From the human T2T-CHM13v2.0 reference genome, Homo sapiens, in assembly GCF_009914755.1 (NCBI RefSeq), contig NC_060925.1: DNA of 64,000 bases; one strand, given 5' to 3'. How positions within the stretch are numbered: position 1 is the stretch's first letter; every line of letters starts with the position of its first letter. Below are positions 150 through 15,590 of the stretch, piece after piece. The translations under genes were made by a program, and so were the position numbers. The notes under the pieces were generated by a model. It was not told where the DNA came from and made no database searches. It saw only the letters and a program-made list of their open reading frames with translations.

Positions 150-3210
<3,061 letters not shown>

Positions 3211-3319
3211 CCAGAACTAGCCAAAGATCAGACAAAGCAATATGAATGAACTGAAAACCCAGGCCGGTGCCTGGTTGGTTTTGAGTAAGATTCATTGGTT
3301 GGGTGAGTGGGAAGCAAGC

Positions 3320-3342
3320 TGACCTTTGGAACAGTGACATCA
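3320..3342 (+). promoter_or_regulatory. Candidate TMCO2 proximal promoter elements (nuclear-receptor half-site and CRE-like site)
   Basis: TGACCTTTG 3320-3328 and TGACATCA 3335-3342, about 120-140 bp upstream of the ATG in CpG-poor sequence. Confidence 0.35.
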
Positions 3343-3435
3343 CAAAGCACAGCTCACAATGGCTCTGGAATACCTAGGCCTCCAGACTACTCCCCCTAAC
3401 TCATATTTAGATTCCTGAAGCTTCTGCACATGTAG

Positions 3436-3747
<312 letters not shown>

Positions 3748-4720
3748 TAGTTCTCTCCCATATTGCTGCCACCAGTTTTAAGATCATGCAGATGTGCAAA
3801 GGCGAACCTTTGTCTCTTAAGTTGGCAAAAACTAGGTTATCCTTGAAAATCTCCACCAATTAGGCTTTGGGCATAAAAATGCTTTTCTCACAATGGTCTT
3901 TGGCTTGTCTTCTGTAATAAAATAGACCAAACATGTTGGTAACCTGAAAAGACAGCCTTACCCTCAAAAATTTTTGATCACTTATTCATCTTTGAGTGCT
4001 ACTATGTTTATACAATAGGCACCAAAGTAGCTAGGATCATGAGTATGGCCTTTCTTACTATGCCATTGTTCTGTAACTGATAAGGAGGCATATGTATTAA
4101 GTCATCACAATGTGTTCATTATTGTGTTTTGACAAGATAAGGCTCCATAAGTATATAGGAGCTCTTTGGGGAGTAGGAATTTAACTGGCTGGGATTGTGA
4201 GAGACAGGATTTTACATACTTCTGTGTAGTCACCAATAATAATAGTTGACATACAATATAGTTGAATGCTTTGAGAATCTCAAAAATTCCATGAAATGGA
4301 TGGAGATTATTTTCACATGACAAGTGAAGAAACTGAGGTGCACTGAGGTTCAGTGGAAACTTAAGGTGACAGGCTTTTAAAACGGCTTTCTTAGAGTGAC
4401 AAGTTTACTTGATAAATGCAGAGAGAAGTTGTTATTGGATCATTTTTTAGCATTCACTTATTTTCATATGTCACTATTGTTTAGTAATCATGGTCACGGG
4501 GCCTTTCTATTTTAAACCATCACAATCCTGCATAACAGTCAGGGAGAGATTATTTGCTCCATTTTGTAGATGAGAGAACTTGATTGCTACCCACCCAAGT
4601 TCACATAGTTTGTAAGAGCTGGCAAAATTGGAGTTTGAATCGAATTTTTAGGATTTGAAATTCAGTTCTTCTCCAAAATCTCATTTAATGCAAACCAACT
4701 GACCTAAATCTTGAACAGGA

Positions 4721-4771
<51 letters not shown>

Positions 4772-4794
4772 CGCATGCGCATATATATGTGTAT
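4721..4794. repeat. (TG)n microsatellite extending into an alternating purine-pyrimidine tract
   Basis: about 23 TG units followed by ACGCGCATGCGCATATATATGTGTAT. Confidence 0.95.
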
Positions 4795-4858
4795 TGTGAG
4801 GATTAAAGAAGATATTGTATGTGTAAATCTTAGCACATATATTCAATAAGTGGTGCTA

Positions 4859-5066
<208 letters not shown>

Positions 5067-5158
5067 TTATAATAAGGAACAAGATGATTTTTTTTCTTAT
5101 CCTAGCAAGAATCTGTCCTACTATACATATTCTTTTGTTATTTATTTATTTATTTTGA

Positions 5159-5564
<406 letters not shown>

Positions 5565-6440
5565 TGATCCTCCTGCCTCAGCCTCCTGAGCAGTTGGAAC
5601 CATAGGCATGCACCACCAGGCTTGGCTAATTTTAAAAATTTTTTTGTAGAGACAGGGTCTCGCTACGTTCACTATGTTGCTCAGGCTGGTCTTTAACTCC
5701 TGGCCTCATGCAATCCTCCCATCTCAGCCTCTCAAAGTGCTGGATGCAGTGGTCCACACCTATAATTTATTTTATATAAATAAAATATATATATATATAC
5801 ATTAATTTTTTTAAGAGACAGGGTCTGGCTATCTTGCCCAGGCTGAAGTGCAGTAGCCATTCACAGGTGCCATCATAGCACACTACTCCTGGGCTCAGGT
5901 GATCCTCCCACCTTACCCTCCCTAGTAGCTGGGACTATATGTGTGTGCCATTGTACCCAGATCTCTCCTAGTATATTTTAAAAACCTTTTCCATGACCAA
6001 GAAATCCAGTTTTTCAGACTACTATGTCCTAAAGTGTACTTGGAAGTGTGAATTTCTGGATTCCTGTCCTGGCTCTGCCACTTCCAATATATAACCTTGG
6101 ACAATGACAGAGTTCAAACTAGAAGGTATATAGTTATCCAGTTGTGTTTTTTCTGCATAAATAGATCATGCAAAGGCAAAGTTACTTCCAGACATTCAGA
6201 AAATGGTTATCTATTATTACAATCTTGATTAAATGCAAATAATAATCCTGCCTGACCTGCCTACCTCTCCAGTTTGCAGTGAAAATCAAAAGATGAAATA
6301 GGCGTGAAAATATTTTGCTAAGGCCGGGCATGGTGGCTTACGCCTGTAATCCCAGCATTTTGGGAGGCCACGATGGGCGGATCACGAGGTCAGGAGATTG
6401 AGAACATCCTGGCTAACACGGTGAAACCTCGTCTCTATTA

Positions 6441-6644
<204 letters not shown>

Positions 6645-6750
6645 TTATTGGAATGAGGAATTATTGTTACTATTAGGTTTTTGTTTTGTTTTTCTCTTAT
6701 AGATAGTAAACTGTAGCAACTAACACTCAACTTCTGTTGTTCCATTTTAG

Positions 6751-7062
<312 letters not shown>

Positions 7063-7126
7063 AATGTGATGGACTCCAATCTTTTCCAGGAAAGCACTGT
7101 TTCCCTCATGTGTGCAGTGGTGTATC

Positions 7127-7132
7127 AATAAA
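7127..7132 (+). terminator. TMCO2: TMCO2 polyadenylation signal
   Basis: AATAAA 65 nt after the stop codon. Confidence 0.7.
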
Positions 7133-7775
7133 GATAGAGAACGCTATTGAAATTACCGTGCAAAGACTAGCTCTCTATTTAGTAGGGCTGAGCTTCTACT
7201 TGTATGGATGGTGGGGTATAGTGGGGTATAGTGGTAGTTAAAAATGTCTCTAGGATTGTGGTGTACACTCAGCAGGCTGGAGACCATAAGCTGCCATAGA
7301 TGGGAGAGGATAGCTGGGCTGGAATCTAAGGCTGTAGGAAGAGAAGGGAGGGTGGTCAGGTACATGGCCTTGAGGTCCATGCTGACGAGGTTAGACTAAA
7401 TATAATAAAAAGTAGGAAAGTGCTGTTTGAGGGCCCTGCAGTGGACTGTCCTTTAGAGGTAGGCTGACCCCTGTGCTGGTCTTTGGCCTAAAGGTATATA
7501 TGCAGTCCAGGGGTCTCCTGCATTAATTACTCAAAAGTGGGCAAGGGTGGGAGTAGATACAGACTGACATAAAGGAGACTAATTTTATCCAACTTTTACT
7601 GATACCTACTCTATGCTAAGCATTGTGATAATCCCTAGGCATCTTTCCTGAGTGCTTCAGGAGCATTCAGTTTGGCTGGATGGACAAGTAATTTCAGATC
7701 AGGGAATTATAATACAGTGGGGTCATAACTTTTTTTTTTTTTTTTTTTTTTTTGAGTCAGAGTCTCGCTTTGTAA

Positions 7776-7991
<216 letters not shown>

Positions 7992-8372
7992 TAACCAAGT
8001 GCGGGGATTACAGGCATGAGCCACTGCACCTGGCCATAACATCTTGAACTGAAGAGAATTCTCCTTGGCAGGGAGGGAAGAATGTAGAGATTCCACTCAA
8101 TGAGTATGTACCCTGAGAGAGAGAGATGGCCCGCCTGGGAGGTGGCAAAAAATGGTTCTCTCAGCAGGCCTCAGATTCCACCAACCTTATAGTGTGTGCA
8201 TTTTTGCCCCAATAAATGAGATCATGGTCATCTGAAACACTGTGTAACTATCTGGCACCTAAATGAAATATTTCATACCCACAGAGGAGGTCTACAGAAA
8301 AAAAACATTTCATCTGGTATGCAGATAAAGTGATTTGTTGCCTTCCTGGAGAAAAACTGGCTATGCTGCTCA

Positions 8373-8561
<189 letters not shown>

Positions 8562-8865
8562 TCAGGGGGCTGAAGCAGGAGGGTCACTTGAGCCTAGGAG
8601 ATTGCTGCAGCAAGCAGCCTGGATGGCAGAGTGAGACCCTGTCTGTCTTTAAAAAAAAAAATAGCAGTCTCCAAAGGGGCATCTTCCTAAGGGAAGGGTA
8701 ATCTTGACCATTTGTAATTTCTGCCTGATCCACTGGAGTTAAAATGCCACCCCTGGATGAGACTTCACTGTATCGTGTACTAAATGCAAAAACAGGTGGG
8801 TGAATACAGGGTGGGGCCAGGAAAGGCTTTGCAAAGGAAGTGACATCGAGGTGTCCCATAAATGA

Positions 8866-9449
<584 letters not shown>

Positions 9450-9745
9450 TAGCCAGGATGGTCTCGATCTCCTGACCTCATGATCCACCCGCCTCGGCCT
9501 CCCAAAGTGCTGGAATTACAGCCGTGAGCCACCGCGCCCGGCCAAAAAAGAAGAGTTTTGAAGAGTAGACTGATGTCAGGTAATGAAGGACCTCGAAGGT
9601 CATACCATATATACCATATATAGGTTGGGCTTTATACTATCATAAATGGACCATTACAGGGTTTTTGTTTTTGTTCTTTTTTAACAGGGAGTAACACAGA
9701 ATTAGTAGCCTATATGAGAGACAGAACGTATGAGCTAGAAAGTAG

Positions 9746-9994
<249 letters not shown>

Positions 9995-10539
9995 TGATCC
10001 ACCCACCTCGGCCTCCCAAAATGCTAGGATTACGGGCGTAAGCCACTGCGCCCAGCCAAGGGGGATCATTCTTTTCTTGAGGCCAGAGCACTTATGGCCA
10101 GAGTTTCAATTAAGGGACCTTGAATGCTTGGTAAGCAGAGAATCAAGGCAAGATAGGGAAAAAGCTTGAGAGCAACTCTATGATTTAGGTTAGACAGGGT
10201 AGATGGACTACCCTACAGCAATGTCTATCACTCTAGGGATAATAATCTTTATCTTTCAAATTCAGTCATTTTCCTTTATTTATTTTTATAGAGATGAAGT
10301 CTCACTGTGTTGCCTAGGCTGGTCTCGAACTCCTGCACTCAAGCAATTATCCCACCTTGGCCTCCCAAAGAACTGAGATTACAGGTGTGAGCCAGCACAC
10401 CCTGCCAGTCTTTCTCCTTTAGCAAAATCCTGCCAACAGCCTGTTTTGAGGTTCCCATTTTTAGACTCCACACAGGCCAGCCCTTCTATTAGTACTGTCT
10501 TTCTGAAAAGAGAAACAAGTGATTATTCACTTTCCATAA

Positions 10540-13149: not shown

Positions 13150-14060
<911 letters not shown>

Positions 14061-14231: not shown

Positions 14232-14656
<425 letters not shown>

Positions 14657-15590
14657 TTAAATGAAATATATTTCTCGTTTTTCATAAAATCAACATTATT
14701 TTAGTTTAAATATTAAAATGGTAAAATAAAAAGTGAAAGTTAACAATTTACCTGAGATAACCATGGTTTAGAGATCTGAACTTTTATTTATTTATTTTTA
14801 ATCTTTATTTATTTATTTAATTTTAGAGTCTAGCTCTGTCACCAGGCTGGAGTACAGTGGCGTTATCTCGGCTCACTGCAAGAAACTAGGAGGGACGAGG
14901 GAGAGTCTGCAAGGGGAAGAGTGTGTCTGTGACACTGCCAGCAGCGCGCAGAGGGAGGGATGTTCAAATGATTCTCCTGCCTCAGCATCCCGAGTAGCTA
15001 GGATTACAGGCACGTGCCACCACGCCCAGCTAATTTTAGTATTTTTAGTAGAGACGGGGTTTCACCATCTTGGCCAGGATAGAATATTTATTGTATTTAG
15101 AGACAGGGGCTCACTCTGCCACCCAGACTGGAGCACAGTAGCATCATCATAGCTCAAGGCAGCCTCGAACTCGTGGGCTCAAACGACCCCTCCACCTCCA
15201 CCTCAGCCTTCTGAGTTGCTAGGACCACAGGTGCGGATCACTGTGCCTGGCTAATTGTTTGATTTTTTTGTAGAGATGTTGCCCGGGGTGGTCTGGAGTT
15301 CCTGGACTCAAGTCATCTTGCCGCCTCCACCTCCCAAAGGGCTGGGATTACAGGCATGAGCCACCGTGCTCGATCTCCCCTCAGCTTTTATTGGCACACA
15401 ACAATATATAGGGAAAGCATGTTGTAGTGGCCCATTATTTTGTTTGGTATCCATTCTCTGTATTACATTTCCTGGACTGAAATTACCCTTACCTTTTATA
15501 ATTTAGTATAATGAGATAGTTGATCTTTCTCCTTTTTTTTTTTTTTTTTTTTTTTTTAAGGAGATAGATTCTCTGTCACCCAGGGTGTAG

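What the first reader, a model, noticed from the sequence alone, without database searches (positions are those of the whole stretch)
14881..14962. 82-bp copy of the ZMPSTE24 transcription-start region pasted into an intron-1 Alu: candidate RNA-templated repair scar
Seen: 14881-14962 is 81/82 identical to 13538-13619 (T13554 vs G14897), in the same orientation, 1343 bp downstream. It sits inside an antisense Alu and replaces about 14 nt of consensus (CTCACTGCA[A..CCTCCGCCTCCCGG..G]TTCAA). Junction microhomologies are only 1 nt, and there is no A-tail or TSD, so it is not ordinary TPRT. The donor begins about 30 nt after the ETS site at an initiator-like tgtAGAAA; from memory an annotated ZMPSTE24 5' end lies about here (unverified). 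It ends exactly at the uORF ATG. Inference: a double-strand break patched with the gene's own short capped/promoter-proximal nascent RNA, or with local DNA by Pol theta/MMBIR. It also creates a second copy of core-promoter sequence, and short TSS reads or primers will multi-map here.
Basis: partly seen in the sequence, partly recalled or inferred. Interest (0 to 1): 0.8.

Follow-up and report, generated by a model that had tools for sequence, protein, structure and literature searches.

The report
Templated repair scar in ZMPSTE24 intron Alu
An 82-base piece of the ZMPSTE24 5' leader was copied once into an Alu repeat 1.3 kb downstream while a DNA break was mended; it is a real but apparently functionless scar, and the sequence alone cannot say whether DNA or the gene's own RNA served as template.

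Summary
Window 14881-14962 is an 81/82 direct copy of 13538-13619. These are the only two copies in the 3.1-Gb assembly. The copy replaces 14 nt that all 16 comparison Alus carry. Each junction has a 1-nt overlap, and there is no target-site duplication or A-tail. It is a templated-insertion break-repair scar, not retrotransposition, and it is much younger than its host Alu (1.2% versus 7.8-10.9% divergence).

The transcription-start claim is only partly right. The current RefSeq start (13713) and the two main CAGE clusters (13651-13676, 13679-13748) all lie downstream of the donor. However, an older RefSeq NM_005857 model began at 13527/13528, 10-11 nt before the donor start. The ATG that ends the donor opens a uORF reported as translated. 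So the donor is nt ~11-93 of a minor, longer leader.

The copy leaves out the ETS site and the GC box, so it is not a second core promoter.

My odds on the template:
- local DNA template switching: about 0.5
- reverse-transcribed own 5' leader RNA: about 0.3
- captured excised DNA fragment: about 0.1

I could not date the event because no primate or pangenome sequence was available. It is a new member of a known kind, of modest interest.

The parts
13538..13619 (+). Donor: 82 nt of the ZMPSTE24 upstream leader/promoter, -175 to -94 from the RefSeq select start, nt ~11-93 of an older RefSeq mRNA model
   Evidence: hub gene table
14881..14962 (+). Inserted copy, 81/82 identical to the donor and in the same orientation; 80 nt are unambiguous, plus 1 ambiguous base at each junction
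14827..14880 (-). Host Alu (antisense), tail-proximal part up to the left junction; its T-rich tail lies at about 14786-14826
14963..15081 (-). Host Alu, remainder after the right junction; 5'-truncated, abutting the tail of an older antisense Alu
14354..14650 (+). Sense Alu that forms an imperfect inverted repeat with the host Alu (arms 40 nt at 88% and 117 nt at 86%, spacer about 230 nt); possible cause of the break or fork stall
   Evidence: (I2, I6)
13501..13508 (+). ETS-type motif CCGGAAGT, outside the copied stretch
13527..13528 (+). 5' end of the older RefSeq NM_005857 model (0- or 1-based numbering unresolved)
13617..13688 (+). uORF (23 codons plus stop) listed as translated; its ATG is the last 3 nt of the donor
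13610..13627 (+). Four G-runs (G-quadruplex-type motif) straddling the donor's right end; includes the GC box at 13620-13627
   Evidence: (read directly)
13651..13676 (+). Secondary CAGE start range (hg19 40723846-40723871)
13679..13748 (+). Primary CAGE start range (hg19 40723874-40723943); contains the RefSeq select start 13713
   Evidence: hub gene table

Best explanation
This is a one-off germline break-repair scar. A double-strand break or stalled fork arose inside the antisense intron-1 Alu, which is one arm of a hairpin-capable inverted Alu pair. Fourteen nt of Alu were lost. A free 3' end switched template, with no more than 1 nt of pairing, to ZMPSTE24 leader DNA 1.3 kb upstream, on the sister chromatid or on the resected upstream flank of the same molecule. 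It copied 80-82 nt, then switched back and was sealed. Shown: the anatomy, the polarity (the Alu is the interrupted partner), the uniqueness, and that the event is younger than the Alu. Inferred: that the template was DNA; that the route was of the FoSTeS/MMBIR or synthesis-dependent end-joining type; that the donor may have been accessible because transcription opens it (displaced + strand next to a G-run motif); and that the copy has no function.
For: The patch anatomy is 14 nt lost, 80-82 nt gained, 1-nt overlaps, and no target-site duplication or A-tail. The donor is intact, lies in cis 1343 nt away and has the same orientation. A template switch between nearby strands predicts this directly. 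The class-2 RNA-derived patches of Onozawa and Aplan come from distant loci. There are only two copies in the genome. The host Alu lies in an inverted Alu pair that folds as single-stranded DNA to -172.9 kcal/mol, against -68.8 +/- 5.5 for 20 shuffles, with the insert as a bulge in the stem. From recall, not from a call, such pairs stall forks and break. The donor lies upstream of the current RefSeq start and of both main CAGE ranges, so it is not part of the bulk of ZMPSTE24 RNA. The copy omits the ETS site and GC box, which argues against promoter function.
Against: A 1-nt overlap at both junctions is below what MMBIR or Pol theta joints usually show. The MMBIR-type insertions screened by Osia 2021 are inverted copies within 100 bp, and Pol theta insertions are, from recall, shorter and templated closer to the break. 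A template picked at random from local DNA would begin 0-11 nt after the most upstream annotated mRNA 5' end in only 12 of 3000-10000 positions (0.1-0.4%). It would lie wholly inside the 222-nt leader in 1.4-4.7% of positions (a post-hoc calculation). That coincidence favours a transcription-defined template. No outgroup, pangenome or read data were available.
Confidence: 0.5

Rival explanations
1. RNA-templated patch. A minor ZMPSTE24 transcript starting at or near 13527-13538, still tethered to the locus while polymerase crosses intron 1, is reverse-transcribed from a 1-nt primed site at 13619 to, or nearly to, its 5' end. The cDNA fills the break in the Alu.
For: The donor is nt ~11-93 of an older RefSeq NM_005857 model whose 5' end maps to 13527/13528. 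Transcripts covering the donor's 3' end exist, because the uORF starting at 13617 is listed as translated by ribosome profiling. A review also reports a translated ZMPSTE24 uORF in human heart (one passage, second-hand). The ETS motif lies 19-30 nt upstream, and 13537/13538 is a pyrimidine-purine step. The junctions match class-2 templated sequence insertions: no target-site duplication, no poly(A), a microdeletion and minimal microhomology. The size is within the 73-414 bp reported for them. The chance of a start this close to an annotated 5' end is 0.1-0.4% for a random local template.
Against: The donor start misses the annotated older 5' end by 10-11 nt. No data show a start at 13538. The two main CAGE ranges and the current RefSeq start are 113-175 nt downstream of it. 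Reported RNA-derived patches come from distant loci, not from 1.3 kb away in cis. No splice junction, non-templated base or other RNA-only mark is present. No processed copy of exon 1 exists elsewhere to show past 5' ends.
Confidence: 0.3
2. Capture of a free double-stranded DNA fragment. Two nearby cuts in the open promoter (for example concerted meiotic or topoisomerase cuts) release an ~82-bp piece from a sister chromatid or homologue. Non-homologous end joining ligates it into a simultaneous break in the Alu, and the donor is restored or segregates away.
For: Near-blunt joints at both ends (1-nt overlap) and a small deletion at the acceptor are what end joining gives. The donor lies in open, GC-rich promoter DNA close to the acceptor. 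Double-cut fragments reinserted nearby have been described in mouse meiosis (recalled, not seen here).
Against: It needs three or four coincident breaks. The same orientation is only a 1-in-2 outcome. Nothing in the sequence marks the donor ends as cut sites. Human meiotic breaks are, from recall, mostly directed away from promoters.
Confidence: 0.1
3. Assembly artefact or private somatic change of the CHM13 cell line, not a feature of human chromosomes.
For: Only one assembly could be examined.
Against: The copy differs from the donor by one base. Its junctions are clean inside an otherwise colinear Alu. An 82-nt unique-sequence insert is not a typical long-read collapse or expansion error.
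Confidence: 0.03

Closest known systems
Class 2 templated sequence insertions / insertion polymorphisms (Onozawa and Aplan; PMC5110952, parts 1-2 of the text read)
   Same: The donor is left intact. There is no target-site duplication, no poly(A) and no L1 cleavage site. There is a microdeletion and minimal microhomology at the joints. The 82 nt is within the reported experimental range of 73-414 bp. The donor is transcribed sequence.
   Different: Those donors are 'distant regions of the genome'; here the donor is 1343 nt away in cis in the same gene. RNA origin is not shown here.
FoSTeS/MMBIR templated insertions (for example the MMB-TIs of Osia et al. 2021, PMC8421209; passages only)
   Same: A short insertion copied from a nearby template and joined by microhomology, leaving a deletion-plus-insertion scar. 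Such events are found as germline variants.
   Different: The signature screened there is an inverted copy within 100 bp and from 10 nt up to read length. Here the copy is direct, 1343 nt away, with only 1-nt overlaps, and no larger rearrangement is attached.
Polymerase-theta end-joining templated insertions (Schimmel et al. 2019: title seen only in a reference list; features recalled)
   Same: A deletion with a templated filler copied from flanking DNA. A direct copy is what priming on the opposite resected end predicts.
   Different: From recall, the fillers are usually under ~30-60 nt, templated within tens of nt of the break, and primed by at least 2 nt.
L1-mediated retrocopies / class 1 templated insertions
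   Same: A copy of transcribed sequence placed elsewhere.
   Different: The defining marks are absent: no target-site duplication of 5 nt or more, no poly(A), no TTTT/A target. There is a deletion instead of a duplication at the target.
Transcript-RNA-templated break repair (for example PMC11390984, PMC5059474, PMC10011834; search listing and abstract starts only)
   Same: Use of the broken gene's own nascent RNA in cis is the idea behind the RNA reading.
   Different: In those systems the RNA is homologous to the broken site and restores it. Here an ectopic part of the transcript (its 5' leader) would have been pasted in without homology.

Membership tests
Class 2 templated sequence insertion (TSI/TSIP) | Inserted sequence templated from elsewhere, donor left intact | tested here: met
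Class 2 templated sequence insertion (TSI/TSIP) | No target-site duplication, no poly(A) tract or signal; end-joining marks (microdeletion, microhomology) | tested here: met
   criteria
Class 2 templated sequence insertion (TSI/TSIP) | Donor from a distant genomic region | tested here: not met
   The donor is 1343 nt upstream in cis
Class 2 templated sequence insertion (TSI/TSIP) | Reverse-transcribed RNA origin | not testable with these tools
   The donor has no intron. It lies within an older mRNA model, but no RNA-only mark is present
L1 target-primed reverse transcription (class 1 TSIP, processed retrocopy) | Target-site duplication of 5 nt or more | tested here: not met
   14 nt are deleted and the flanks are not duplicated
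L1 target-primed reverse transcription (class 1 TSIP, processed retrocopy) | Poly(A) tail and TTTT/A-type target | tested here: not met
FoSTeS/MMBIR templated insertion | Insertion copied from a nearby template | tested here: met
FoSTeS/MMBIR templated insertion | Microhomology (usually 2 nt or more) at each template switch | tested here: inconclusive
   Only 1 nt at each junction, about what chance gives
FoSTeS/MMBIR templated insertion | Inverted copy within 100 bp (the MMBSearch signature) | tested here: not met
   Direct copy at 1343 nt. This is a detection criterion of one tool, not a limit of the mechanism
Polymerase-theta templated insertion | Short filler templated from the immediate flanks of the break | tested here: not met
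   80-82 nt from 1.3 kb away; the typical values are recalled, not taken from a call
   It is 10-11 nt downstream of an older RefSeq 5' end and 113-175 nt upstream of the main CAGE ranges and the RefSeq select start. No single-base TSS data were available
Duplicated core promoter | The copy carries the promoter's factor sites | tested here: not met
   The ETS motif (13501-13508) and GC box (13620-13627) lie outside 13538-13619

The most novel reading that the evidence does not exclude
The patch was reverse-transcribed from the 5' leader of ZMPSTE24's own nascent, upstream-initiated transcript while that transcript was tethered over intron 1. On this reading the donor's left edge marks an RNA 5' end. 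That would make it a natural germline example of non-homologous, cis RNA-templated break filling in humans. It would also define a searchable genome-wide signature: leader-anchored copies in first introns.
Probability: 0.3. Interest if true: 0.7.

Novelty: new member of a known kind. Interest (0 to 1): 0.35.

Why it matters
Templated insertions are footprints of error-prone break repair. Germline examples with a clean donor and acceptor show which templates repair enzymes reach for. This one is unusually legible: unique sequence pasted into an Alu, so the direction of copying is certain. Its donor sits at the very start of a minor mRNA leader, so a few public data sets (ape and pangenome alignments, capped-RNA 5' ends) could decide between a DNA and an RNA template. 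If the template was RNA, the case supports RNA-templated end joining in the human germline and gives a signature to scan for. If it was DNA, this is one more ordinary template-switch scar. In practice, reads or primers of about 80 nt or less from the upstream ZMPSTE24 leader map to two places that differ by one base.

Tried and rejected
- Ordinary retrotransposition is rejected: no target-site duplication, no A-tail, and a 14-nt target deletion.
- Tandem or segmental duplication is rejected: the 1261 nt between the copies are not duplicated.
- Copying in the reverse direction (intron to promoter) is rejected: the intron copy interrupts a colinear Alu.
- A processed ZMPSTE24 pseudogene that could reveal old mRNA 5' ends was sought. 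BLAST of 13380-13871 against the assembly found only the locus itself and the 82-nt copy.
- My own recollection that an older RefSeq 5' end coincides exactly with 13538 was not borne out. The tool-derived position is 13527/13528.
- Text searches for hg19/hg38 coordinates found only unrelated numbers.
- Searches for ZMPSTE24 with 'transcription start site/promoter' and with 'intron 1/Alu' found no description of this insert. That covers only the held library's main texts.
- These papers were not held: van Heesch 2019, Mudge 2022, Konermann 2015. The supplement of PMC8844112 had no ZMPSTE24 rows.
It found 1 event, this one, which is too little for a rate.
- No primate, GRCh38 or pangenome sequence was reachable. 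So the date, the polymorphism status and the ancestral base at 13554/14897 remain open.

Full report
**1. The observation**

Window 13538-13619 and 14881-14962 are direct repeats of 82 nt, 81/82 identical (T13554 versus G14897), 1343 nt apart. Both ends of the unit occur exactly twice in the window, where shuffles give 0.03 and 0.00 matches. A search of the whole 3.1-Gb assembly finds only these two places. Five non-self pairs in the window reach at least 95% identity over at least 40 nt. Four are Alu against Alu and this is the fifth. Extending the same screen to 264 kb (window plus 200 kb downstream) gave no second low-copy local pair.

**2. Anatomy and direction of copying**

I aligned the host element (antisense Alu, body 14827-14880 and 14963-15081) with 16 other Alus from the window.
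- All 16 of 16 have a 14-nt segment between ...CTGCAA and GTTCAA.... The host lacks it and has the insert instead.
- One base at each junction (A14881, G14962) could belong to either partner.
- There are no non-templated bases, no duplicated flank, no A/T run and no L1-type target.
- The intron copy interrupts an otherwise colinear repeat, so it is the derived copy and the promoter-side copy is the donor.
- The host Alu is 5'-truncated and abuts the tail of an older Alu.
- The host Alu forms an imperfect inverted repeat with the sense Alu at 14354-14650 (arms 40 nt at 88% and 117 nt at 86%, about 230 nt apart).
- As single-stranded DNA the pair folds to -172.9 kcal/mol against -68.8 +/- 5.5 for 20 shuffles, with the insert as a bulge in the stem.

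From recall, not from a call, such pairs stall forks and break.

**3. Age**

With the insert masked, the host Alu differs from the majority of the 16 comparison Alus at 19/175 sites, or 12/153 outside CpG. Donor and copy differ at 1/82 sites (Poisson 95% interval 0.03-6.8%). If the insert were as old as the Alu, 6.4-8.9 differences would be expected in the copy lineage alone, and P(1 or fewer) is 0.012 to 0.0013. The event is therefore much younger than its host. I could not decide how young, or whether it is fixed, because no other human or primate sequence was available.

**4. Where the donor lies relative to transcription**

*Current annotation.* The hub table puts the RefSeq select start at 13713, so the donor is at -175 to -94.

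*Anchoring hg19 to the window.* Ji et al. 2015 (PMC4739776) give a list of non-canonical translated ORFs in supplementary file 1. It contains 'ZMPSTE24:NM_005857:chr1:+:90:161' at hg19 40723811-40723883, which is 72 nt.
- Seven 72-nt stop-terminated frames exist in window 13400-13800.
- Only 13617-13688 starts with ATG or a near-cognate codon.
- Only that placement puts array probe cg25275331 (hg19 40723935; PMC6710292 Table 2) on a CpG.
- This fixes hg19 minus window at 40,710,195, assuming no indel across these ~220 nt.

*Main CAGE ranges.* With this offset, the CAGE ranges in Horlbeck et al. 2016 (PMC5094855, supplementary file 3, sheet 'Human hg19') fall as follows:

| Range | Window position | Note |
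|---|---|---|
| Primary | 13679-13748 | contains 13713 |
| Secondary | 13651-13676 | |

Both are downstream of the donor end.

*Older RefSeq model.* Transcript position 90 of the uORF puts the 5' end of the RefSeq model then in use at 13527 or 13528. That is 10-11 nt before the donor start. The donor is therefore nt ~11-93 of a longer, minor leader. That leader exists as RNA: the uORF at 13617, the only ATG between 13538 and the coding ATG, is listed as translated. A review reports a translated ZMPSTE24 uORF in human heart (one passage, second-hand; the primary paper was not held).

*My own recollection.* I recalled that an older 5' end coincides exactly with 13538. This was not confirmed.

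**5. What the copy does not contain**

The ETS motif (13501-13508) and the GC box (13620-13627) flank the donor but are not copied. The copy is not a second core promoter, and I see no reason to expect function. The donor's right end falls inside a run of four G-tracts (13610-13627).

**6. Mechanism**

What is shown is a patch: a break in the Alu, 14 nt lost, 80-82 nt copied from 1.3 kb upstream, and near-blunt joints. This excludes TPRT and simple duplication. The template is not shown.

*For a DNA template.* Nearness in cis and the same orientation are what template switching between neighbouring strands predicts. This holds for replicative FoSTeS/MMBIR and for priming of one resected end on the other. 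The RNA-derived class-2 insertions of Onozawa and Aplan come from distant loci. The donor lies outside the bulk of ZMPSTE24 transcripts.

*For an RNA or transcription-defined template.* A random local template would start within 0-11 nt of the most upstream annotated 5' end in only 0.1-0.4% of positions. It would lie wholly inside the leader in 1.4-4.7% of positions. This test was chosen after seeing the data. The joints and the size fit class-2 insertions.

*An intermediate possibility.* The template could be DNA made single-stranded by transcription, namely the displaced + strand between the upstream start and the G-tracts. This would explain both the cis position and the edges. It is inference only.

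My odds:

| Explanation | Probability |
|---|---|
| Local DNA template, including the transcription-opened variant | about 0.5 |
| Own 5' leader RNA, reverse-transcribed | about 0.3 |
| Captured excised DNA fragment | about 0.1 |
| Artefact or cell-line-private change | about 0.03 |
| Unassigned | remainder |

**7. Comparison with known kinds**

The scar meets the junction criteria of class-2 templated sequence insertions but fails their 'distant donor' criterion. It shares the logic of MMBIR and Pol-theta templated insertions but lies outside their usual orientation, distance, length and microhomology (the Pol-theta values are recalled). It fails every mark of L1-mediated insertion. I file it as a new member of the known kind 'templated-insertion repair scar'.

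My searches found no description of this particular insert:
- ZMPSTE24 with 'transcription start site/promoter'
- ZMPSTE24 with 'intron 1/Alu'
- templated or RNA-templated insertion

These cover only the main texts of the held library. bioRxiv supplements and most structural-variant catalogues could not be consulted and may list it.

**8. Verdict**

The reading as a repair scar is sound. The transcription-start anchoring is approximate: it holds for a minor upstream leader, not for the main start. The RNA template remains a live but unproven minority reading. Interest is modest unless the RNA reading is confirmed.

Noticed in passing
window 13199-13238: A 19-nt unit (GCGGCCCACTCAGTCAGTT) appears twice in tandem in the ZMPSTE24 upstream region. 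This was read from the sequence only.
   Followed up: no
window 13572-13594 vs 13690-13712; also 13584-13592 vs 13664-13672: The promoter holds internal look-alike blocks of the form GGGA.GAGTGT...TGTG.CAC, about 118 nt apart. The second block ends immediately before the RefSeq select start at 13713. A 9-nt CTGTGACAC repeat lies 80 nt apart. This may be an old internal duplication of the start region. Read only.
   Followed up: no
window 13610-13627: Four consecutive G-tracts (a G-quadruplex-type motif) on the + strand lie between the minor upstream start and the main CAGE ranges, overlapping the GC box. The donor's right end falls inside the motif.
   Followed up: partly
window 14354-15081: An inverted Alu pair with a ~230-nt AT-rich spacer folds far below shuffled controls as single-stranded DNA (z = -19). 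This is a candidate fragile spot in ZMPSTE24 intron 1.
   Followed up: partly
window 13617-13688: The ZMPSTE24 uORF (23 codons) lies wholly upstream of the current RefSeq select start (13713). The present annotation therefore no longer contains a uORF that ribosome profiling listed as translated. Ji 2015 supplementary file 2 also pairs it with a mouse Zmpste24 uORF.
   Followed up: partly
window 15081-15372: The host Alu is 5'-truncated exactly at the T-rich tail of an older, more diverged antisense Alu, as if it had inserted into that tail.
   Followed up: no
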